Assembly (NCBI GenBank): GCA_963838045.1
Contig: CAWIPQ010000002.1
Span: 21,014-85,013, forward strand
Direction of reading: 5' to 3'
From: an uncultured Verrucomicrobiae bacterium
GTDB lineage: Bacteria; Verrucomicrobiota; Verrucomicrobiia; Chthoniobacterales; UBA10450
DNA: 64,000 nucleotides
Shown: in pieces, positions 3,015 through 48,104 of the stretch
Numbering within the stretch: position 1 is the stretch's first letter
Layout: each line of letters starts with the position of its first letter
Translations under genes and position numbers: made by a program
The notes under the pieces: generated by a model
What the model saw: the letters and a program-made list of their open reading frames with translations, nothing else
Told to the model about the DNA's origin: nothing
Databases searched by the model: none

Positions 3015-3762
3015 ATTCGCGCGCCAGCGCGCGATACGCCTGGGCGGAGGGTCCGCTCGGCGTGTATTCCAAAATCGATTTGCCGAAGCTGGGCGCTTCG
3101 CTCAAGCGCACACTGCGCGGGATTACAGTTTTATAAACGCGTTCGCCAAAATGCTTTCGTACATCAGCCACCACCTGCTGGCTAAGGTTGGTCCGGGCGT
3201 CGAACATCGTCATGACGATCCCGCCGAGCTCCAACCGCTCGTTGGCGCCCGAATCGAGCACTTGCTCGATGAGCCGCACAATTTTTACCAATCCTTCCAG
3301 CGCGAAATATTCGCATTGGATTGGAGTTAACAATTCATCCGCAGCCGCAAGTGCGTTGCTCATCAGGATTCCGAGCGACGGCGGACAGTCCAGGAACACG
3401 AAATCAAACGTTTGATCCGTGCGCAGTGGTTTAAGGGTTTCCGCCAGGCGCGTGAGGTGATTTGGCATCCGCGCGATTTCTACCTCGGCGCCTGCCAAAT
3501 CGAGATCGGCGGGCACCAGGAACAGGCCTTCACGCCGTGTGGGCAAAATCTTTTCGGTAATGGAACTCTCGCCAAGGAGCGGTTCGTAAAGACTGATTTC
3601 CTCGGTTCCCTGCAAACCAAATGAGCTGGTCGCATTCGCTTGCGGATCGAGATCGACAATCAAAATCCGCTTACCCATTTCGGCCAGCGCGGACCCGAGA
3701 TTGACGGCTGTGGTCGTCTTGCCGACTCCGCCTTTTTGATTGGCAATCGCGATGATTTTCAT
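2938..3762 (-). CDS. parA: ParA/Soj family partition ATPase
   Basis: MKIIAIANQKGGVGKTTTAVNL deviant Walker A, followed by DLDPQANAT. The 3-prime end overlaps the convergent GNAT gene by 77 nt. No parB is adjacent. Confidence 0.9.
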   Translation of the reverse strand: MKIIAIANQKGGVGKTTTAVNLGSALAEMGKRILIVDLDPQANATSSFGLQGTEEISLYEPLLGESSITEKILPTRREGLFLVPADLDLAGAEVEIARMPNHLTRLAETLKPLRTDQTFDFVFLDCPPSLGILMSNALAAADELLTPIQCEYFALEGLVKIVRLIEQVLDSGANERLELGGIVMTMFDARTNLSQQVVADVRKHFGERVYKTVIPRSVRLSEAPSFGKSILEYTPSGPSAQAYRALAREFMQRHASPATARELSHTPASENLET

Positions 3763-10616: not shown

Positions 10617-10882
10617 AGGTGGATCGACTTCTCCGATCGAAGATTCGCCGTGGCGAAAGGCGATGACAATGTTCGCCGGAGGCGCTGTCTAGATTCTGGC
10701 GGTAAAGCGCAGCGGTACAGGCAACGCGCCCGGAGGTCGCGTTCCTTGAGGTGGATCGACTTCTCCGATCGGAGATTCGCCGTGGCGAAAGGCGCTGATC
10801 TAAGACTCTGGCGGCAAGCCGCAGCACCTATAGCCAACGCGCCCTCGCCACGGCGAGCTAGCTGCGGTCGCGTTTCACCTTT
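10617..10882. mobile_element. two tandem copies (131 and 135 bp) of a MITE-like palindromic repeat (family A)
   Basis: Each unit starts AAGGTGGATCGAC and ends GTCGCGTT(C/T)C(A)CCTT, giving terminal inverted repeats of about 14 bp. The internal arms CGCCGTGGCGAAAGGCG / CGCCCTCGCCACGGCG pair. Confidence 0.75.
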
Positions 10883-10995
10883 GGGCGCGAAGTGCACGTC
10901 AATGCGCATTTAATTTTGAGTTATTCAAGTCTGCTGCTGCGACGGGAATCGAAGCTTGTATGAGGTATGAGACCCAACTAAGATCAAGAAGGCCC

Positions 10996-13671
10996 ATGGC
11001 AAAGCGAAAAGCCAGGACAAATGCATCCCGTTCACGGAAAAAGCCGAGCGGAACAAAATCGTCCCGCTCAAAAGCAGCGAAGGCGAAATCAACGTCAAAA
11101 ACGGCGAATAAAAATTTGAGTTGCCCGATTGTGGGCATCGGCGGCTCTGCAGGCGGATTCGAAGCGGCGATGGATCTCTTGCGCCATTTAGATCCGAAAA
11201 CGGGTATGGCTTTTGTGATCGTGCAGCATCTCGATCCGCATCACGGAAGCCGCCTTCCTAATTTGCTAAGCAAAGCCACAGCGATGCCAGTCACCGAGGT
11301 GCCCGGGACGATCACGCCAAAACCAAATACGGTGTATGTCCAGCCGCCGAATAAGTGTGTCATTGCAAAGAAGGGCAAGCTGACGCTGGTCCGCCGCGCG
11401 GAGAGAGTCAACGTTGCGATCGACCACTTTTTTGAATCGCTCGCTGACGAATGCGGATCGCAGGGCATCGGAATCGTGCTTTCCGGGACCGGCAGCGATG
11501 GCACGGCCGGGTTGCGTGCCATTAAGGCAGCCGGCGGCTTGACCTTCGCGCAAACTGAAGAGAGCGCGAAGTTCGACGCCATGCCGCGCAGCGCAATTCG
11601 CGCTGGATTCGTTGACCTGGTTCTGCCGCCGCACGAAATCGCGCGCGAAATCGGGCGGGTCGCGAAGCATCCCTACGTCCGGCGTCCCATCAGCGAACAG
11701 GAGCTAACGGAAAAGGCGGCCTACCGACATGCCAACGACATGGGTCGCATTTTTCTTTCGCTGAAAAAGCATACGGGCGTCGATTTCAGCGCTTACAAGG
11801 AAGCCACGCTGATTCGACGGATTAAGCGACGTATGGCCGTGCATCGGATCGACAGCTTGAAGCGGTACGCACAGTTTTTGCGCAACAACAAAACGGAAGT
11901 CCATGCGCTTTTTGACGATCTGCTTATCAATGTGACTCAGTTTTTCCGGGACAAGAATCTCTTTAGTGTGTTGCAGAAGAAAGTTTTCCCGGCGTTGCTC
12001 AAAAGTAAGAGCAAAGATCGGCAACCGGAACTGCGCGTCTGGGTGCCGGGTTGCGCCACAGGCGAAGAAGTTTATTCGCTGGCGATTTGTATTCTGGAAA
12101 CGCTTGGCCAGCGGCCATCCAAATTGCGCATCCAGCTTTTCGGCACCGATCTGAGCGATTCCGTGATCGAACACGCGCGGCTCGGAATTTATTCCAGTTC
12201 AATCGAGAAGGACGTCTCGTCCGCGCGACTAAAGCGATTTTTTGTCAAACGCGACAGCACTTACCAAATCCATCGGAACGTGCGCGACATCTGCACGTTC
12301 GCGCGGCAAAACATCGCCGCGGATCCACCATTTTCGCGGCTCGACCTGATCAGTTGCCGCAACGTTCTCATTTACTTGAACCCGGCGTTGCACAAGCGCT
12401 GCATCCCGCAATTTCACTACGCGCTCAATCCTGGCGGCTACTTGATTCTCGGGCCTGCCGAATCGGTCGGTCCGTACGAGGAGCTTTTTAAATTAGTGGA
12501 CAGGAAAAACAAAATTTACACCAAGACGGCGGTGAACAGGCTGCCTGCGACGGACTTCATTTCGCAGAGAGAGCCTGGGTCGGCAGACTTCGAAGCGAGG
12601 CCGATGGCCGCTGGTCAAAATCTGGGTGGCAATCTCCTGAGAATAGCAGACCGGATTATGCTAAGCACTTACGCGCCAGCTGCGGTGGTGACCGATGAAC
12701 ACCTGCAGGTGCAGCAGTTCCGCGGCCGGACCGATCTCTTTCTCGAGCACCCACCCGGCCCGGTAACATATAATCTGCTGCAGATGGCGCGGCCTGCGCT
12801 GGTGGCAGATCTTCGCGCTATTATCCGTCGCTCCGTCAAGACGGGCAAGCCTGCCCGGAAAGAACGCGCAATTGTGAGGCTCGATGGCAAAAACTACGAA
12901 ATCAATCTTCAAGTGGTGCCATTCAAAGTCCCCGCGTTCAACAAGGTATGGCTGCTGGTGATCTTTGACGAGACTACCAGAGGAGCAAAACCGGAAAGAG
13001 TTGCGCGGCCGCTCGGGAAGACAGGTGCGGAGCGCGAGATACACGAGTTGCAGAACGAATTGGCGGCCTCAAAAGAATCCTTGCAAGCCATCATCGAAGA
13101 ACATGAAGCGACAAACGAGGAGTTGAAGTCGGCCAACGAAGAAATTGAATCGAGCAACGAAGAGCTGCAATCGACCAATGAAGAGCTGGAGACGGCGAAG
13201 GAGGAATTGCAATCTACCAACGAAGAGCTGACCACGTTGAACGAAGAGCTGAGCAACCGCAACCTTGAGATGATGCAATTGACCAACGAATTAAACAATT
13301 TGCTGGCCAGCATTCAAATGCCGATCGTGATGGTGGACAACGCGTTGACAGTGCAGCGCGCCACTCCCGCGGCGCGCGATACTTTTAATATTTTGCCGAC
13401 TGACATCGGCCGGCCGTTGACTGAGCTGCGACCTAATGTCGATGTTCCCGACCTGGAAAATCTTTTGTGCGATGTGATCGAAACGTTGACGCCGCGCGAG
13501 CGCAAAGTCGCGGATAACGAAGGGCGCAAATATTTGCTGCGTGTTCGGCCGTATCGCACCACTGACAACAAGATCGAGGGCGCGGTGCTTACATTGGTGG
13601 ATATCGATGGAAAACAAGATCGCGTTCCTGCAAAAAACAACCGCGCAAAAGATGTCTCGTCGCCCAAATAA
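10996..13671 (+). CDS. CheB methylesterase - CheR methyltransferase - PAS fusion protein
   Basis: CheB-type region (IVGIGGSAGG...GTGSDGT...), CheR SAM-binding region (RVWVPGCATGEEVYSLAI...CRNVLIYL), a NEEL-rich coiled coil and a terminal PAS domain. Start is 10960 or 10996. Confidence 0.85.
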   Translation: MAKRKARTNASRSRKKPSGTKSSRSKAAKAKSTSKTANKNLSCPIVGIGGSAGGFEAAMDLLRHLDPKTGMAFVIVQHLDPHHGSRLPNLLSKATAMPVTEVPGTITPKPNTVYVQPPNKCVIAKKGKLTLVRRAERVNVAIDHFFESLADECGSQGIGIVLSGTGSDGTAGLRAIKAAGGLTFAQTEESAKFDAMPRSAIRAGFVDLVLPPHEIAREIGRVAKHPYVRRPISEQELTEKAAYRHANDMGRIFLSLKKHTGVDFSAYKEATLIRRIKRRMAVHRIDSLKRYAQFLRNNKTEVHALFDDLLINVTQFFRDKNLFSVLQKKVFPALLKSKSKDRQPELRVWVPGCATGEEVYSLAICILETLGQRPSKLRIQLFGTDLSDSVIEHARLGIYSSSIEKDVSSARLKRFFVKRDSTYQIHRNVRDICTFARQNIAADPPFSRLDLISCRNVLIYLNPALHKRCIPQFHYALNPGGYLILGPAESVGPYEELFKLVDRKNKIYTKTAVNRLPATDFISQREPGSADFEARPMAAGQNLGGNLLRIADRIMLSTYAPAAVVTDEHLQVQQFRGRTDLFLEHPPGPVTYNLLQMARPALVADLRAIIRRSVKTGKPARKERAIVRLDGKNYEINLQVVPFKVPAFNKVWLLVIFDETTRGAKPERVARPLGKTGAEREIHELQNELAASKESLQAIIEEHEATNEELKSANEEIESSNEELQSTNEELETAKEELQSTNEELTTLNEELSNRNLEMMQLTNELNNLLASIQMPIVMVDNALTVQRATPAARDTFNILPTDIGRPLTELRPNVDVPDLENLLCDVIETLTPRERKVADNEGRKYLLRVRPYRTTDNKIEGAVLTLVDIDGKQDRVPAKNNRAKDVSSPK

Positions 13672-22457: not shown

Positions 22458-22534
22458 GGGCAAACATACTTTCACTATGCATTAAGCGCAAAGTTGTAGT
22501 GGCGTCTGTAACAACGGTTTTGGCGAAGCCCAAC

Positions 22535-22886
22535 AAGGTGGAACGCGACCGTAGCTAGCTCGCCGTGGCGAGGGCGCGTTGGGTGCAGCCAGCGGCTCTG
22601 CCGCCAGAATTGAGACTGCGCCTTTCGCCACAGCGAATCTCCGATCGGCGAGTGTTGCCATCGAGCTCTGAGATCTCGATCCACCTTTTAAGAGCAGGTG
22701 CTCGCTTTTGATGGCAAAGGTGGACGCGACTGCAGCTAGCTCGCCGTGGCGAGGGCGCGTTGGATGTAGCCGGCGGCTCTGCCGCCAGAATTGAGACTGC
22801 GGCTTTCGCCACGGCGAATCTCCGATCGGCGAGAAAGCCATCGAGCTCTGAGATCTCGATCCACCTTTGTAGAGCAGGTGCTCGCT
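22535..22886. mobile_element. two tandem copies (period about 182 bp) of the family A MITE-like repeat, inverted relative to 10617-10882
   Basis: Units at 22535-22688 and 22717-22868, each followed by AGAGCAGGTGCTCGCT. The reverse complement aligns with the copies at 10617-10882 and has an extra segment of about 25 nt. Confidence 0.75.
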
Positions 22887-29815: not shown

Positions 29816-31079
29816 TTAGCCCACTGCGTCAGTCGCTGCTTCTCGCGTTTTGTATTCAGCCACGAAGCCCTTGCGGAATTGATCGAATGCTCCGCGTTCA
29901 ATCTCTGCGCGCGCGCGGCTCATGAGGTTTAGGTACAAATGTAAATTGTGCAAAGTGATCAGACGCAGTCCCAGTATTTCTTCCGCCTTGATGAGATGAC
30001 GGATGTAACCGCGGGAGAATCCGCGACAGGCGGCGCACCCGCAGTTTTCCTCGATCGGGCCATTGTCGAGCGCGAACTCCGCGTTCTTTAAATTCAGTGT
30101 GCCAGTCGCGGTAAAGGCTGTTCCGTTCCGGGCGAGGCGGGTCGGCAGCACGCAATCGAACATGTCCATTCCGCGCGCGATCATCTCCAGCATTTGCGGC
30201 GGCGTGCCGAGCCCCATGGCGTAACGTGGTTTGTCTGTAGGCAAAAACGGTTCAGCCGATTCAACCGCACGCATCATTTCTTCCTCCGGCTCGCCCACAC
30301 TCACGCCTCCAATGGCGTAACCGTCGAAATCAATCTCCACAATTGCCTGCGCACTTTCTTTGCGGAGATCTTCGAACGCTCCTCCTTGCACAATTCCAAA
30401 GAAAAGCTGGCGCGCTGTAGCGTGCGCTGTCCTCAGCGCATTCACCGGAGATTCCGCTGAGACAGCGGACGCTACAATCTCAGTTGAGCGTTGGGCGTTC
30501 GGCGCCTGCTCGCGATTTATCGGAGTTGGGCGTTCGGCGTTTTCTGCTTTCCATTGTTTGCATCCTTTCGCCCAGCGCGTGGTCAGTTCTGCGCTTTGCG
30601 CCGCGTAATCGTATTCGCACGGATAGGGAACGCATTCATCGAGCACCATCGCAATGTCGCTGCCGAGCGCGGCTTGAATTTCCATGGCGATCTCGGGCGA
30701 AATGAATGCGCGCGCGCCGTCGATGTGATTTTGGAATTCCGCGCCTTCCTCGGTGATCTTGCGCAACTTTGCCAGCGAGAAAATCTGGTATCCGCCGCTG
30801 TCGGTGAGAATCGGCCCGTCCCAACTCATGAAACGATGCAGGCCGCCCAAATGCCTCGATCACATGAAGACCGGGCCTAACGAACAAGTGATAGGTGTTC
30901 CCGAGAATGATCTGTGCGTTCAGTTCACGCAGTTCGCGTGGGCTGACCCCTTTCACGGAGCCTTGCGTTCCCACCGGCATGAATGCCGGCGTATCGATCA
31001 CGCCGTGTGCAGTTGTTAATCGGCCACTTCGTGCTTTTGACCGTTGGTCGTTCGCCAGGAGTTCAAAGGCATTCTGCAT
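29816..31079 (-). CDS. tgt: queuine tRNA-ribosyltransferase, with one apparent frameshift and an in-frame insertion of about 30 aa
   Basis: The N-terminus MQNAFELL...[15 protein letters not shown]...EAFG is in ORF 30636..31154. The remainder, [21 protein letters not shown]...CGCAACRGF (zinc site), is in 29816..30850. The shift is at the CCC run 30846-30848. Confidence 0.85.
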
Positions 31080-31310
31080 GCGGTATGGAGATTCCTCCAA
31101 CCTTCGCATAAAGCTTCGGCTTGGCAGGCGACTTCGCTCGGAATGACAATTCAACGAACAAAATATTCTTTGCGGATCGCCATTTTCCCTCTATGTTCCG
31201 CGCTTACCGCATCAGGCGCGTGAGTTGGGTTTGTTGCGCGGCCTGAAGCGGGTTTTTTTGTCGCCCGGAGTAACGACTTTTGGCGGCGCATTATTTTTAG
31301 GATTTGGACG

Positions 31311-31736
31311 ATGCCCACCATCAATCAGCTGATTCGAAAAGGACGCCGGAAGGTGTCGGTGAAATCAAAGTCGCCGGCGCTGGCAAGCTGTCCGCAGCGA
31401 CGTGGTGTGTGTGTGCAAGTGATGACGCGCACACCGAAGAAGCCTAATTCTGCCCTGCGCAAAGTGGCGAAAGTGCGGTTGACGAATGGCCAGGAAGTGA
31501 TTGCCTACATCCCTGGCGAGGGGCATAATTTGCAGGAGCACTCCATCGTGCTCGTCCGCGGCGGGCGCGTGAAGGATTTACCTGGTGTGCGCTATCACAT
31601 TGTGCGCGGAACACTTGATGCGCTTGGTGTGGATGGTCGGCGACGCGGTCGCTCCAAGTACGGAGCGAAGCGCCCGAAGGGCGGGGCGGCCGGTGGAGGC
31701 GGCGCGGCGAAAGCGGCGCCGGCAGCGGCCAAATAA
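31311..31736 (+). CDS. rpsL: 30S ribosomal protein S12 (with a Gly/Ala-rich C-terminal tail)
   Basis: [14 protein letters not shown]...PNSALRKVA... Confidence 0.97.
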
Positions 31737-31767: not shown

Positions 31768-32241
31768 ATGTCGCGGCGGAGAAGAGTTCACAAAAAAGAA
31801 GAGCACGTAGATTCCCGATACGGGAGTCCGGCGGTAGCTCGTCTTATCAGCACCGTGATGAAGCGAGGCAAGAAATCCCTCGCCGAACGCGTGGTGTACA
31901 CGGCGATTGATAAATCGCGTGAAGGCTCCGATTCAGTCGATCCGCTTGAAATTGTAAACAAGGCGATCGACAACGTCCGTCCGCGCCTCGAGGTGCGATC
32001 GCGTCGCGTGGGTGGCGCGACCTATCAGGTGCCAATGGAAGTGGCGCCTGCCCGGCAAATCTCACTGGCCACGCGCTGGATCGTGAAATTTGCCGATGGC
32101 CGTAAGGGCTTACCATTGGCTCAAGCTCTGGCACAGGAACTCAAAGACGCCGCGGCCGGTCAGGGTAACGCCATTAAAAAGCGAGACGACACGCATAAAA
32201 TGGCGCAGGCAAACAGGGCGTTCGCACACTTTAGATGGTGA
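31768..32241 (+). CDS. rpsG: 30S ribosomal protein S7
   Basis: 157 aa ending in the conserved S7 C-terminus ...[13 protein letters not shown]. Confidence 0.95.
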   Translation: MSRRRRVHKKEEHVDSRYGSPAVARLISTVMKRGKKSLAERVVYTAIDKSREGSDSVDPLEIVNKAIDNVRPRLEVRSRRVGGATYQVPMEVAPARQISLATRWIVKFADGRKGLPLAQALAQELKDAAAGQGNAIKKRDDTHKMAQANRAFAHFRW

Positions 32242-32314
32242 CCGCAACGCGGAACGACGAAGCATGAATCACGAAACAATAACGAATTTGGAAAATATGA
32301 ACTCGATTCAAGTC

Positions 32315-32407
32315 GTCATCCCGAGCGAAGTCGAGGGATCCCGCCGCGTTAGCTTCAAGTTAACTTCGCGGGATTCCTCGACTCCGCTGCGCTCCGCTCG
32401 GAATGAC
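32315..32407. mobile_element. 93-bp MITE-like palindromic element (GTCATCCCGAGCGAAGTCGAGGGATCCC ... GGGATTCCTCGACTCCGCTGCGCTCCGCTCGGAATGAC)
   Basis: The long arms are near reverse complements. A second copy lies inverted at 48014-48104 and a half-copy at 31128-31147. Confidence 0.75.
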
Positions 32408-32413
32408 AGAGCA

Positions 32414-32446
32414 GCGAACCGCGCATTTGCGCATTTCAGGTGGTGA
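32414..32446 (+). other. orphan duplicate of the last 10 codons plus stop of rpsG ([10 protein letters not shown]), synonymously recoded
   Basis: GCG AAC CGC GCA TTT GCG CAT TTC AGG TGG TGA here, versus GCA AAC AGG GCG TTC GCA CAC TTT AGA TGG TGA at 32209-32241. Confidence 0.8.
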
Positions 32447-32451
32447 CAACT

Positions 32452-34632
32452 ATGGCAACGGCGACCATGGAACAAAAGAAGGCTCCGGCGAAAAATCCAA
32501 ACTCGCCAAATCGCAAGTTTCCGTTGGAGCGGACCCGGAACATCGGGATCGCGGCGCACATTGACGCCGGCAAAACGACGATCACCGAGCGCGTTCTGTT
32601 TTATACCGGCATGATCCACAAAATGGGAGAAGTGCACGAGGGCACCACCGTCACCGATTGGATGGAGCAGGAGCGCGAACGCGGCATCACCATCACGTCG
32701 GCGGCGACAACGTGCAGTTGGGCGCAGCGTAAGGAAGAAGGCGTTTACAAGATTTTCGAAGGCGTCAAAGAGCGTATCAACATCATCGACACACCCGGGC
32801 ACGTGGATTTCACGGCCGAAGTAGAACGTTCTCTGCGCGTGCTCGATGGCGCGATCGCCGTTTTCGACGGAGTGGCCGGAGTGCAGCCGCAATCTGAAAC
32901 TGTGTGGCGTCAGGCAACCAAGTACAACGTCCCGCGTCTGGCTTTCATCAACAAAATGGATCGCGTCGGCGCAGATTTCGAAATGTCTGTCGACAGCATC
33001 CATAAAAAACTCGGGGCCAACGCCTGGCCGGTCTTATTGCCGCTGGGAAGAGAAGATCAGCTGCGCGGCCAGCTCGATGTCATTAATAAGAAGGCGATCA
33101 TTTACTCCGAGAACGATCAGTTTGGATCCACTTATGAAGTGACCGAACTGCCGAAAGAGCACGTGGAAGCGGTTGAGAAGGCGTACAATGATCTGGTAGA
33201 ACAGGTTTCGAATCTCGACGATCAAGTTGCCGAGGCCGTGCTCGAAGAGCGCGAAATCACTCCGGCATTATTGAAAGCCGGCATTCGCCGGCAGACGATC
33301 GCGAACAAATTCGTGCCTGTGATCGGAGGTTCGGCTCTTAAAAACATCGGTATTCAATATCTGGTCGATGCAGTGGTTGATTATTTGCCAAGCCCCCTCG
33401 ACATCCCGCCAGCCAAAGGTCAGAACCCCGACACGGGCGAGCCGATGGAAGCGATAACTGACGACAGTGGCACGTTCTGTTCGATCGCGTTCAAGTTGTG
33501 GAGCGATCCGTTTGTCGGCAAGCTGGTGTTCTTCCGTGTTTACTCCGGCTCGCTCAGTAAAGGCGACACTGTTTACAATCCGCGCACGAACAAACGTGAG
33601 CGGATTTCGCGTTTAATTCAGATCCAGGCAGACAAACGCGAAGACATCGAGACGTGTTACTCGGGCGATATCGCCGCGATCGTAGGAATTAAAAACATTA
33701 CCACTGGCGACACGCTCTGTGATGAAGACCATCCAATTCTTCTCGAGCCGCCGTCGTTTCCCGATCCGGTTATCTCGATGGCGATTGAACCAAAGACGAA
33801 ACTCGATCAGGAAAAAATGGCCACCGCGTTACAACGCCTCGCCGAGGAAGACCCGACTTTCCGTGTTTTCACGCACGAAGATACCGGTCAGACCATCATT
33901 GCCGGAATGGGCGAGTTGCACCTGGAAATCATTCGTGACCGGATGTTCCGGGAGTTCAAAGTCGACGCGAACGCCGGGAAACCGCAAATCGCATATCGCG
34001 AAACGATCACCAGCGGTGCGCACGGCGTGGGCAAGTTGATCAAGCAATCGGGCGGTCGCGGTCAGTATGGACACGTGGAAGTAGATGTTCGTCCCGCCGC
34101 GCGCGGCAACGGCCTGACTGTAGAGAACAAAATTGTAGGCGGAATCATCCCGAGGGAATACATCCCGGCGGTGAAAAAAGGCATCGAAGAAGCGGTGCTC
34201 AATGGTGTGCTGGGCGGCTATCCTGTTGTCGATGTGGAAGTGGACATCGTTTACGGTTCGTTCCACGAAGTTGATTCCAGCGAACTCGCGTTCAAAATGG
34301 CGTCGATTTTCGCCATGAAAGACGGTTTCAAGCAGGGCAAACCCATTCTGCTGGAGCCGATCATGAAAGTGGAGAACATCACGCCGGAAGAATACCAGGG
34401 CGACATTTGCGGCGACTTGAGTCGACGGCGTGGAGCGATCAACAGCATCGAGACCCGGGGGAATCTGGTGATTATCCATGCGCTGGTGCCGCTTGCGGAG
34501 TTGTTCGGATACGCAACGGCGATCCGGTCGTTGTCGAAAGGCCGTTCCAGTTATTCGATGGAGCCGTCGCACTTTGATCCGGTCCCGGCGAATTTGGTTG
34601 CGGCGATTCTCGATCAAAAGGAGACGAAATGA
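32452..34632 (+). CDS. fusA: elongation factor G
   Basis: AHIDAGKTT and DTPGHVDF G-motifs. Likely start is ATG 32452; the track ORF starts at GTG 32440 inside the rpsG remnant. Confidence 0.97.
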
Positions 34633-37480: not shown

Positions 37481-37563
37481 AATGAGAAATCGAGAACCGA
37501 GATTTGTGAACTGGTTTGCGAATCTCGAATCTCGATTCGCAGATCACGAATCACTTGCAATTT

Positions 37564-48013: not shown

Positions 48014-48104
48014 GTCATTCTGAGCGGAGCGAAGCGGAGTCGAAGAATCCCGCGGCTATACTGAGAGCAGTTTTACGGGGTCCCTCGACTTCGTTCGGGA
48101 TGAC
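48014..48104. mobile_element. second copy of the GTCAT(C/T)C(C/T)GAGCG... MITE-like palindrome, inverted relative to 32315-32407
   Basis: The reverse complement aligns along its full length with 32315-32407. It lies between rpmJ and rpsM. Confidence 0.75.

What the first reader, a model, noticed from the sequence alone, without database searches (positions are those of the whole stretch)
32209..32446. The rpsG 3-prime end is duplicated 205 nt downstream with identical amino acids but 9 of 11 codons recoded
32209-32241 and 32414-32446 both encode [10 protein letters not shown] plus a TGA stop. All eight differing sense codons are synonymous changes: GCA/GCG, AGG/CGC, GCG/GCA, TTC/TTT, GCA/GCG, CAC/CAT, TTT/TTC and AGA/AGG. 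The second copy sits where the rpsG stop is normally found, directly ahead of the fusA start. The first copy is the one in frame with rpsG. Between them lie 73 nt of unique sequence and a 93-bp MITE-like palindrome. A simple target-site duplication would give identical nucleotides. This pattern fits a remnant of a displaced, divergent rpsG allele left by illegitimate or partly homologous replacement of rpsL-rpsG. It also fits an inserted segment that carried its own replacement gene end.
Basis: seen in the sequence. Interest (0 to 1): 0.65.

Follow-up and report, generated by a model that had tools for sequence, protein, structure and literature searches.

The report
MITE cassette duplicating the rpsG–fusA junction
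A small palindromic mobile repeat sits between two essential translation genes of a soil Udaeobacter genome, flanked by two copies of the gene junction, so both genes stay intact; other Udaeobacter lineages carry the same cassette, so it is a recurring, exchangeable structure and not a one-off scar.

Summary
32209-32241 (c1) and 32414-32446 (c2) both encode [10 protein letters not shown] plus TGA. They differ at 9 nucleotides in 8 codons, all synonymous.

c2 is the native, displaced end: it matches insertion-free relatives at 31-32 of 33 nt and has the native distance to fusA. c1 is the working end of rpsG, and its last 27 nt are foreign. A 96%-identical strain (L081), with an identical S7 protein, lacks the 205-nt insertion.

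The "73 nt of unique sequence" is a decayed copy of the fusA 5' region. The true structure is therefore a direct duplication of about 105 nt of the rpsG-fusA junction around a 93-nt MITE and a 6-nt linker.

The same architecture occurs in at least 9 other fetched Udaeobacter contigs, and at least 13 distinct ORF variants point to it. There are three MITE variants, and c1 and c2 usually co-vary within a genome. Cassettes are exchanged between host lineages, with breakpoints inside c.

In every carrier an ORF bridges from just after the c1 stop, through the MITE, to the c2 stop. A different repeat at a fusA-rpsJ junction has the same layout.

Best reading: the cassette is tolerated because duplication separates S7's coding end from fusA's ribosome-binding region, and this lineage imported it by recombination. 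How the duplication first arose, and whether the bridging ORF functions, are unresolved.

The parts
31768..32241 (+). rpsG (ribosomal protein S7, 157 aa). It ends with c1.
   Evidence: ORF. The protein is identical to that of L081, which lacks the insertion. Pfam Ribosomal_S7 is assigned to the orthologues.
32209..32241 (+). c1: the functional last 10 codons plus stop of rpsG. Its last 27 nt (from 32215) are foreign, linked to the cassette.
   Evidence: Identity is 22-28 of 33 nt to every relative's single copy. There are 8 mismatches to L081 in 27 nt, against 13 in the preceding 441 nt. All changes are synonymous.
32238..32267 (+). Mini-ORF VTATRNDEA*. Its GTG overlaps the rpsG stop (GTGA) and its TGA overlaps the ATG of the bridging ORF (ATGA). 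It is the vestigial fusA start region.
   Evidence: Compare native fusA, (GTG ACA ACT) ATG GCA ACG GCG. A role in coupling is inferred only.
32242..32314 (+). Decayed left copy of the spacer plus the first ~22 codons of fusA.
   Evidence: It is 73 nt long; the native stretch is 72 nt. Collinear matches GCAACG, ATGRA, GAAAA(A)T..AACTCG and CAAGT are visible. The pattern GAAAAN{0,1}TNNNAACTCG occurs only at 32291 and 32490 in 64 kb, with 0.03 expected by chance. Equivalent remnants occur in L104 and L083.
32264..32446 (+). Bridging ('relay') ORF of 60 aa. It runs from the vestigial fusA Met, through the MITE's only open frame and the linker, into c2 in the S7 frame, and stops at the c2 stop.
   Evidence: Equivalent ORFs of 53-64 aa occur in all carriers.
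32315..32407 (+). 93-nt palindromic MITE-like repeat (GTCATCCCGAGCG...CGCTCGGAATGAC).
   Evidence: Inverted repeats I1 and I5. Another copy lies at 48014-48104 and a half copy at 31129-31148. There is a copy in L002. ORFs derived from copies occur on unrelated contigs. It folds into a strong hairpin. No Rfam family matches.
32408..32413 (+). 6-nt linker (AGAGCA) between the MITE end and c2. Its length never varies among carriers; its sequence does.
   Evidence: Alignments A5, A7 and A8. All relay ORFs have exactly 2 codons between ..ND and [10 protein letters not shown].
32414..32446 (+). c2: the displaced native rpsG end. It no longer ends S7. It holds the Shine-Dalgarno-like AGGTGG 8 nt ahead of the fusA ATG, and it terminates the bridging ORF.
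   Evidence: It matches the single copy of L002, L003, L040 and L081 at 31-32 of 33 nt and has the native 140-nt distance to the P-loop codons.
32452..34632 (+). fusA (EF-G), intact. Its first ~67 nt form the right copy of the duplicated junction.
   Evidence: Orthologues start 5 nt after the S7 stop.
48014..48104 (-). Second full copy of the same repeat family, in the rpmJ-rpsM spacer, without a junction duplication.
31129..31148 (-). Half copy (one arm) of the repeat upstream of rpsL, shared with relatives.
   Evidence: (D2, I2).

Best explanation
WHAT IT IS. The feature is one allele of a polymorphic insertion cassette in the rpsG-fusA junction of Candidatus Udaeobacter genomes. A palindromic MITE-like repeat is flanked by a direct duplication of about 105 nt of the junction. 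The duplicated stretch holds the last 10 codons and stop of rpsG, the 5-nt spacer, and the first ~22 codons of fusA.

HOW IT WORKS. In the native junction, the end of the S7 coding sequence and the ribosome-binding region of fusA occupy the same ~35 nt. Any insertion there would break one of two essential genes. With the stretch present twice, the two roles are divided:
- The left copy keeps only the S7 end (c1, under protein-level selection). Its fusA start decays.
- The right copy keeps the fusA start and, just upstream, the old S7 end (c2). c2 now serves only as fusA's translation-initiation region.

An ORF runs from the vestigial fusA start, through the MITE's single open frame, to the c2 stop. 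It ends exactly where S7 translation normally ends. It may pass ribosomes on to fusA and unwind the hairpin. This step is inferred.

HISTORY IN THIS GENOME. The cassette was imported by recombination from another Udaeobacter lineage. The breakpoints lie in the conserved block just before or inside c1 (32158-32214) and at the start of c2. That is why c1's last 27 nt are recoded while c2 is native.

SHOWN: the anatomy, the presence in other lineages, the empty site in close relatives, the chimeric c1, and cassette exchange between hosts.
INFERRED: the division of function, the relay role of the ORF, and the route of import.
UNKNOWN: how the first duplication arose.
For: 1. c2 is native and c1 is foreign. 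L081 is 96% identical, has an identical S7 protein and has no insertion. Of the top 44 ranked relatives' loci from the species-representative scan, mostly Verrucomicrobiota, none has a second copy. One of 10 contigs sampled through S10 carries it.

2. The duplication extends into fusA.

3. The same architecture occurs in independent assemblies: L083-L091, L092, L104, L113, L116, L117, L118 and L119. MITE orientation and the 6-nt linker are identical throughout. There are three MITE centre variants. At least 13 distinct ORF variants end in ..ND[12 protein letters not shown].

4. c1 and c2 co-vary within genomes. Differences between the copies number 1, 1, 2, 2, 4, 7 and 9 in seven carriers, and the copies share lineage-specific synonymous variants.

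5. Cassettes are exchanged between hosts. L118 has L092/L004-type rpsG and fusA flanks but an L113-type cassette. L092 has another cassette type and L004 has none. In the window, L104 and L118, c1 is host-like at its 5' end and cassette-like at its 3' end, while the 3' part of c2 is host-like.

6. The bridging ORF is open in all carriers, including L104, where it was not ascertained through a gene call. ATG-to-MITE distances (51, 36, 36, 30 nt) and MITE lengths (93, 120 nt) are all multiples of 3.

7. The same layout occurs at a different junction with a different repeat. In L106, the fusA-rpsJ ATGA overlap is duplicated around palindromes with a 48-aa bridging ORF. Four more contigs carry it.

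8. There is no terminator-like site and no convincing promoter inside the insertion. The MITE folds into a strong hairpin.
Against: - The donor of c1 plus the remnant was not found. One metagenome scan returned only a chance hit, and the closest relay ORF is 68% identical.
- Most carriers were found through called ORFs, so 'always open' is biased. Only L104 and L106 are unbiased.
- c2's conservation could come from gene conversion with c1 and not from a role in fusA initiation.
- L016 carries a ~165-nt palindromic insertion between the rpsG stop and the fusA ATG without any duplication. Duplication is therefore not obligatory where the native spacer is longer.
- The copy of this MITE in the rpmJ-rpsM spacer has no long duplication, so the repeat does not itself generate one.
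- Single versus multiple origins are unresolved.
- No reads were available to verify the window's assembly.
Confidence: 0.62

Rival explanations
1. Ancient, vertically inherited cassette. The duplication plus MITE arose once at the base of Udaeobacter. Most lineages lost it by recombination between the c1 and c2 direct repeats. The window's lineage kept it long enough for c1 and c2 to diverge at nearly all synonymous sites.
For: The shared exact architecture (6-nt linker, orientation, boundaries) favours a single origin. 33-nt direct repeats can delete the insert precisely. L081's copy starts with GCA, like c1, and continues like c2, as a crossover in GCAAAC would give. L104 and L116 share a near-identical cassette in related hosts.
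Against: The window is nested among at least five insertion-free relatives at 86-96% identity. L081 differs by only ~4% overall, yet c1 differs from c2 at 8 of 27 nt. The divergence would therefore predate the split, and L081 would need a deletion through 3-6 nt of microhomology. L117, from the same clade (L002-like), carries a different MITE variant. L118 shows a cassette in a foreign host background.
Confidence: 0.15
2. A miniature site-specific integrative cassette. The ~170-200-nt unit (S7-end 3' part, remnant, MITE, linker, S7-end 5' part) integrates from a circular form by a Campbell-type crossover within the last 33 nt of rpsG, mobilised in trans. It carries its own replacement gene end, as prophages do at icd or at tRNA genes.
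For: In the window, L104 and L118, both breakpoints fall inside or at the edge of c even though there are hundreds of nt of flanking homology. c1 is host 5' plus cassette 3'. c2 has odd first codons followed by host 3' sequence. Three cassette types occupy exactly the same site. Close relatives differ in presence or absence.
Against: There is no recombinase gene in or next to the cassette. The identical core between c1 and c2 in the window is only 7 nt (TGGTGAC). The breakpoint pattern can also arise if foreign flanks are eroded by later recombination with insertion-free conspecifics. Other copies of the repeat lie at unrelated sites.
Confidence: 0.13
3. Remnant of a displaced divergent allele after replacement of rpsL-rpsG by illegitimate or partly homologous recombination.
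For: c1 is divergent and c2 is displaced. Homology-facilitated illegitimate recombination is known to leave displaced 3' ends (PMC5361080).
Against: rpsL-rpsG upstream of ~32185 is 97% identical to L081, no more diverged than flanking DNA. The same structure, with the same junctions, recurs in many lineages.
Confidence: 0.05
4. Assembly artefact: a chimeric join of two strains in a metagenome assembly.
For: The window may come from a long-read metagenome assembly. The exact-match look-up for its S7 lists one unread contig of 0.2-1 Mb, and tgt appears frameshifted.
Against: The same architecture is present in at least 9 other contigs from unrelated projects, including short-read assemblies. There is no shared k-mer at the right junction that would explain a false join.
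Confidence: 0.03

Closest known systems
Prophage e14 (and phage 21) integration into the 3' end of icd in E. coli; likewise DLP12 at argU
   Same: The inserted DNA supplies a replacement 3' end fused to the gene. The native end is left as a pseudo-copy (icd', 163 bp) on the far side. The two copies are homologous and differ mostly conservatively (PMC6379469).
   Different: e14 is a multi-kb prophage with its own integrase and defined att sites. Here the insert is 172 nt with no recombinase, its core is a MITE, and the duplication also includes the start of the downstream gene.
Bacterial MITEs and palindromic intergenic repeats (Correia, ERIC, RUP, REP/BIME; Rickettsia palindromic elements that insert in frame) - from my own knowledge
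   Same: Small size, terminal inverted repeats, hairpin-forming, several copies, located inside operons and co-transcribed. One frame stays open, so they can be read through.
   Different: Those elements make target duplications of about 2-10 bp or none. Here the flanking direct repeat is ~105 nt and contains functional gene parts. No cognate transposase was identified.
C-terminal displacement in Rhs, CDI and T6SS effector loci by homologous or homology-facilitated illegitimate recombination
   Same: Incoming DNA anchors in a conserved upstream part and brings a new 3' end. The old 3' end is pushed downstream as an orphan (PMC5361080).
   Different: In those loci the new end encodes a different toxin domain and the change is adaptive. 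Here both ends encode the same 10 residues, and the displaced copy retains a likely role as fusA's initiation region.
Engineered 'decompression' of overlapping genes by duplicating the overlap (T7.1 refactoring) - from my own knowledge
   Same: Overlapping coding and initiation signals are separated by writing the shared stretch twice, so that DNA can be inserted between genes.
   Different: That was a design choice in a phage genome. Here the same solution appears naturally in an essential bacterial operon.

Membership tests
MITE (miniature inverted-repeat transposable element) | Terminal inverted repeats and overall palindromic structure | tested here: met
   Arms 32315-32330 / 32392-32407 are 88% complementary. 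Inner arms of 32 nt are 81% complementary. Strong hairpin.
MITE (miniature inverted-repeat transposable element) | Small size with no transposase gene | tested here: met
   93 nt (114-120 nt in other variants). Only a read-through frame is present.
MITE (miniature inverted-repeat transposable element) | Several dispersed copies in the genome | tested here: met
   The window holds 2 full copies and 1 half copy in 64 kb, with 0 expected by chance. There is a copy in L002. Copy-derived ORFs occur on unrelated contigs.
MITE (miniature inverted-repeat transposable element) | Short target-site duplication of fixed length | tested here: not met
   No short direct repeat flanks any of the copies examined. 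At rpsG-fusA the flanking repeat is ~105 nt.
MITE (miniature inverted-repeat transposable element) | A cognate autonomous IS with matching termini | not tested
   No transposase-like ORF was noticed in the window. The whole genome was not available.
Integrative element with a replacement gene end (icd/e14 type) | Element-borne copy of the target gene's end fused to the gene, with the native end displaced to the far side | tested here: met
   c1's 3' part is foreign and c2 is native. The same holds in L104 and L118.
Integrative element with a replacement gene end (icd/e14 type) | Own site-specific recombinase (integrase) | tested here: not met
   The 172-nt insert encodes none. The neighbours are tgt, rpsL, rpsG, fusA and rpsJ.
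Integrative element with a replacement gene end (icd/e14 type) | Identical core sequence shared by attL and attR | tested here: inconclusive
   The longest identical run in the window is TGGTGAC, 7 nt. In other carriers the copies are nearly identical throughout.
Diversity-generating retroelement (template and variable repeat at a gene's 3' end) | Differences confined to adenines of the template repeat, mostly non-synonymous, with a reverse transcriptase nearby | tested here: not met
   The differences include C/T, T/C, G/C and A/G in both directions, and all are synonymous. No RT-like ORF lies nearby.
Known structured RNA (Rfam) | Match to a curated covariance model at its gathering score | tested here: not met
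   Only sub-threshold chance hits: mir-9456 at 27.6 bits against a gathering score of 80.

The most novel reading that the evidence does not exclude
The cassette is a miniature mobile 'junction cassette'. It enters the last 33 nt of rpsG by recombination and carries its own replacement gene end. A selected bridging ORF keeps it harmless by handing ribosomes from rpsG, through the MITE hairpin, to the fusA start. This would be a general natural way to insert DNA into overlapping, translationally coupled essential genes, also seen at fusA-rpsJ with a different repeat.
Probability: 0.2. Interest if true: 0.75.

Novelty: new variant of a known kind. Interest (0 to 1): 0.55.

Why it matters
The str/S10 operons are among the most compact and conserved regions of bacterial genomes. 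Insertions there are expected to be lethal.

This case shows how one is tolerated. The stretch that serves as both the end of one gene and the ribosome-binding region of the next is written twice, and each copy then keeps one job. The recoded c1 and the near-native c2 show this directly.

Because the cassette is embedded in extremely conserved DNA, it can move between diverged lineages by ordinary homologous recombination. That is a simple route of spread for a non-autonomous element in Ca. Udaeobacter, one of the most abundant soil bacteria.

If the bridging ORF proves to be selected, it would be a natural example of a translational relay across an insertion. It would also give a practical design rule for engineering coupled operons.

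The cassette is also an easily scored presence/absence and type marker for recombination among uncultured Udaeobacter populations.

Tried and rejected
- A simple target-site duplication followed by drift is rejected. c2 is still 31-32 of 33 nt identical to relatives, while c1 carries 8 synonymous changes in a genome only ~4% from L081.
- DGR template/variable repeats are rejected. The changes are not adenine-specific and all are synonymous.
- A known RNA family is rejected. There is no terminator or convincing promoter in the insert.
- Replacement of rpsL-rpsG is rejected.
- The idea that this MITE always makes long duplications is rejected. The rpmJ-rpsM copy has none.
- A search for the donor failed. 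A 22-nt pattern across the c1/remnant boundary gave one unrelated chance hit in metagenome contigs (L082) and nothing in viral contigs.
- The 73 nt resemble the AATGACGAA-repeat element in L016's rpsG-fusA spacer only weakly: score 24 against shuffles of 14.6 ± 2.4, with 1 of 300 shuffles as good. I now read most of the 73 nt as decayed fusA 5' sequence, but part could be a second small element.
- An in-frame S7::MITE fusion allele, a possible intermediate, did not turn up. No hit of the profile search was longer than 111 aa.
- Literature searches for Udaeobacter repeats, and for MITEs combined with translational coupling, returned nothing relevant.
- The Python machine was lost. Later statistics rest on the tools' own shuffles and on hand counts.
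Full report
OBSERVATION

The window encodes rpsL (31311-31736), rpsG (31768-32241) and fusA (ATG at 32452, ending at 34632) on the + strand.

c1 (32209-32241) and c2 (32414-32446) both translate to [10 protein letters not shown]. They share 24 of 33 nt. The 9 differences fall in 8 codons and all are synonymous. The finding's title ('9 of 11 codons') is off by one; its text is right.

c1 is in frame with rpsG. c2 lies 205 nt downstream, in another frame. Between them lie 73 nt, a 93-nt palindrome (32315-32407, I1 and I5) and a 6-nt linker.

WHOSE GENOME, AND WHICH COPY IS NATIVE

A scan of species-representative genomes with S7 places the window in Candidatus Udaeobacter / Chthoniobacterales (Verrucomicrobiota).

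- Each of the top 44 ranked loci from that scan, mostly Verrucomicrobiota, has a single S7 end.
- In the closest relatives, the distance from that end to the fusA P-loop codons is 140 nt. This is exactly the distance from c2 in the window.
- c2 matches the single copy of L002, L003 and L040 at 31-32 of 33 nt. Its downstream flank continues as in those genomes.
- c1 matches any relative at only 22-28 of 33 nt.

An exact-protein look-up for S7 returned L081, a JGI soil contig that is 96% identical in DNA, has the same S7 protein and lacks the 205 nt.

Against L081, rpsG has 13 mismatches in its first 441 nt and 8 in the 27 nt from 32215 to 32241. By my own binomial estimate this contrast has a probability of about 1e-6. 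c2 differs from L081's copy at one position.

So c2 is the native end, now displaced. c1's last 27 nt are foreign. rpsL and rpsG upstream of about 32185 are not foreign (97% identity, against 96% for the flanks).

THE '73 nt OF UNIQUE SEQUENCE' IS A DECAYED COPY OF THE fusA START

The stretch is 73 nt long. The native stretch from the S7 stop to fusA codon ~22 is 72 nt.

Collinear short matches run through it: GCAACG, ATGRA, GAAAA(A)T...AACTCG and CAAGT. A pattern drawn from it occurs only at 32291 and 32490 in the whole window, with 0.03 expected by chance.

The same holds in two other carriers: L104 (chance 0.01) and L083 (chance 0.02).

The real structure is therefore a direct duplication of about 105 nt of the rpsG-fusA junction, with a MITE and a 6-nt linker between the copies.

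THE PALINDROME IS A REPEAT FAMILY

- A second full copy, in the opposite orientation, lies in the rpmJ-rpsM spacer (48014-48104).
- One arm lies upstream of rpsL (31129-31148) and is shared with relatives.
- L002 has a full copy near tgt.
- ORFs read through copies on unrelated contigs.
- No Rfam family matches.
- The rpmJ-rpsM copy sits in a normal 26-73-nt spacer and has no long flanking duplication. The repeat therefore does not by itself create one.

THE ARRANGEMENT RECURS

Searching the protein collection with the ORF that runs through the insert found ORFs that end ...RSARND[12 protein letters not shown]. A profile of four such ORFs found at least nine more distinct variants.

Their contigs all place the ORF between S7 and EF-G. 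They are L083-L091 (including GCA_901459625.1 and GCA_900000265.1), L092, L113-L115, L116 (GCA_003218835.1), L117, L118 and L119. An independent sample taken through the S10 protein found one carrier, L104, among ten contigs.

All carriers share the following:
- a functional S7 end (c1);
- a 35-73-nt fusA remnant that starts with an ATG 2-24 nt after the stop;
- the repeat in the same orientation;
- exactly 6 linker nucleotides;
- c2;
- 5 nt (more in the L092 type);
- fusA.

The repeat's centre comes in three variants: 93 nt (window, L092), 120 nt (L083, L104, L116, L117) and about 114 nt (L113, L118, L119).

THE TWO COPIES CO-VARY, AND CASSETTES MOVE

Differences between c1 and c2 number 1 (L083, L116), 2 (L117, L113), 4 (L092), 7 (L104) and 9 (window).

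Within the L113/L118/L119 group, which clearly shares one cassette, c1 and c2 carry the same lineage-specific synonymous variants. Codon 148 is GCA/GCA in L113 and GCC/GCC in L119. Codon 153 is GCC/GCC in L118 and GCT/GCT in the others. This points to gene conversion or repeated recombination within c.

Non-synonymous changes occur only in c2: A to V in L092, A to M in L104, and N to D in P0014. This is expected if c2 no longer encodes S7.

Cassettes are exchanged between hosts:
- L118 has rpsG and fusA flanks of the L092/L004 type but a cassette about 95% identical to that of L113/L119.
- L092 carries the 93-nt type.
- L004 is empty.
- L117 has L002-type flanks and a 120-nt cassette, while L002 itself is empty.

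In the window, L104 and L118, c1 is host-like at its 5' end and cassette-like at its 3' end. c2 is host-like apart from its first codon or two.

The window is therefore the extreme case of a general pattern. Its cassette came from a lineage with different codon choices, and that lineage was not found.

THE BRIDGING ORF

The repeat has one open frame; the other two contain TAA or TAG (read). The 6-nt linker puts that frame in phase with c2's S7 frame.

In every carrier an ATG in the fusA remnant opens this frame. The resulting ORFs are 60 aa in the window (32264-32446), 64 aa in L104 (not called as a gene there) and 53-64 aa elsewhere.

ATG-to-repeat distances (51, 36, 36, 30 nt) and repeat lengths (93, 120 nt) are all multiples of 3.

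In the window, a 9-codon ORF additionally links the rpsG stop (GTGA overlap) to the ATG of the bridging ORF (ATGA overlap).

The ORF ends at the c2 stop, 5 nt before the fusA ATG, which is where S7 translation ends in the native junction. c2 contains AGGTGG 8 nt before that ATG.

The insert has no terminator-like site and no convincing promoter. The repeat folds into a strong hairpin (271 nt, -100 kcal/mol, z = -3.9).

I infer that the ORF could keep fusA translationally coupled and could unwind the hairpin. The evidence is suggestive only, because most carriers were ascertained through called ORFs.

A SECOND JUNCTION WITH THE SAME LAYOUT

In L106, the fusA-rpsJ junction (normally an ATGA overlap) carries about 110 nt of other palindromic repeats. 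They are flanked by duplicated junction sequence (AAGGAGRCGAAATGAGC...).

A 48-aa ORF runs from the vestigial S10 ATG to the vestigial fusA stop, which overlaps the real S10 ATG. Four further contigs carry 83-92% identical 48-aa ORFs.

By contrast, L016 has a ~165-nt palindromic insertion between the rpsG stop and the fusA ATG without any duplication. It belongs to a clade whose native spacer is longer. Duplication therefore seems to be needed only where the junction is tight.

INTERPRETATION

Best supported (0.62): a polymorphic MITE cassette, tolerated because the duplicated junction separates S7's coding end from fusA's initiation region, and brought into this lineage by recombination.

Rivals:
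- ancient vertical inheritance with many losses (0.15);
- a site-specific miniature integrative cassette that uses c as its attachment site (0.13);
- a one-off allele replacement (0.05);
- an assembly artefact (0.03).

How the first ~105-nt duplication arose is not resolved. No in-frame S7::MITE intermediate was seen.

COMPARISON WITH KNOWN SYSTEMS

The closest analogue in outcome is prophage e14 in icd: a replacement 3' end plus a displaced pseudo-end (PMC6379469). Also close is C-terminal displacement in Rhs and T6SS loci by homologous or homology-facilitated illegitimate recombination (PMC5361080).

The closest analogue in the nature of the insert is the bacterial MITE or REP-like repeat (from my own knowledge). 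The feature fails the integrase criterion of the first family and the short-TSD criterion of the second. I therefore file it as a new variant of known kinds and not as a member of either.

VERDICT

Novelty: new variant of a known kind. Interest: 0.55.

Noticed in passing
window 29816-31154 (minus strand): tgt (queuine tRNA-ribosyltransferase) is split into two overlapping ORFs in different frames (29816-30850 and 30636-31154). Relatives have a single 352-403-aa gene. The window also has about 50 extra nt at ~30408-30519 relative to L081. This could be a frameshift, a pseudogene or a long-read indel error.
   Followed up: partly
window 31098-31128: A 31-nt insertion specific to the window lies inside the half MITE upstream of rpsL. 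It is absent from L081, L040 and L003. It contains AAGCTTCGGCTT, a UUCG-type mini-hairpin.
   Followed up: partly
L106 3140-3310: The fusA-rpsJ junction is duplicated around ~110 nt of other palindromic repeats, with a 48-aa bridging ORF (3158-3304). Four more contigs encode 83-92% identical ORFs (P0047-P0050).
   Followed up: yes
L016 467-660: A ~165-nt palindromic element built from AATGACGAA repeats lies between the rpsG stop and the fusA ATG, without duplication of the rpsG end. Relatives L008 and L013 have a 16-19-nt T-rich native spacer.
   Followed up: partly
L118 600-960 compared with L113, L119, L092 and L004: Near-identical cassettes sit in different host backgrounds, and different cassettes sit in near-identical host backgrounds. 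This is direct evidence of recombination at the S7-end repeats.
   Followed up: yes
window 22534-22886: A tandem duplication of about 180 nt (22534-22706 and 22715-22886), 91-96% identical.
   Followed up: no
window 13082-13247: A 21-nt periodic repeat (heptad-like ..NEEL..) inside the 903-aa ORF 10960-13671.
   Followed up: no
window 10617-10798: Two 50-nt copies spaced 132 nt apart (10617-10666 and 10749-10798), 96% identical.
   Followed up: no
window 37481-37563: The rplB-rpsS spacer holds a small palindromic element (AATCGAGA...TCTCGATT). It is absent from L103, where the spacer is 27 nt. No duplication is present, and none is needed, because this junction does not overlap.
   Followed up: partly
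L040 / L111 rpsG; L108 rplC; L109 rplD-rplW: Several long-read MAG contigs show apparent frameshifts in ribosomal protein genes, probably from assembly indel errors. This is a caution for reading single-base differences, such as the missing G before c2, in such assemblies.
   Followed up: no
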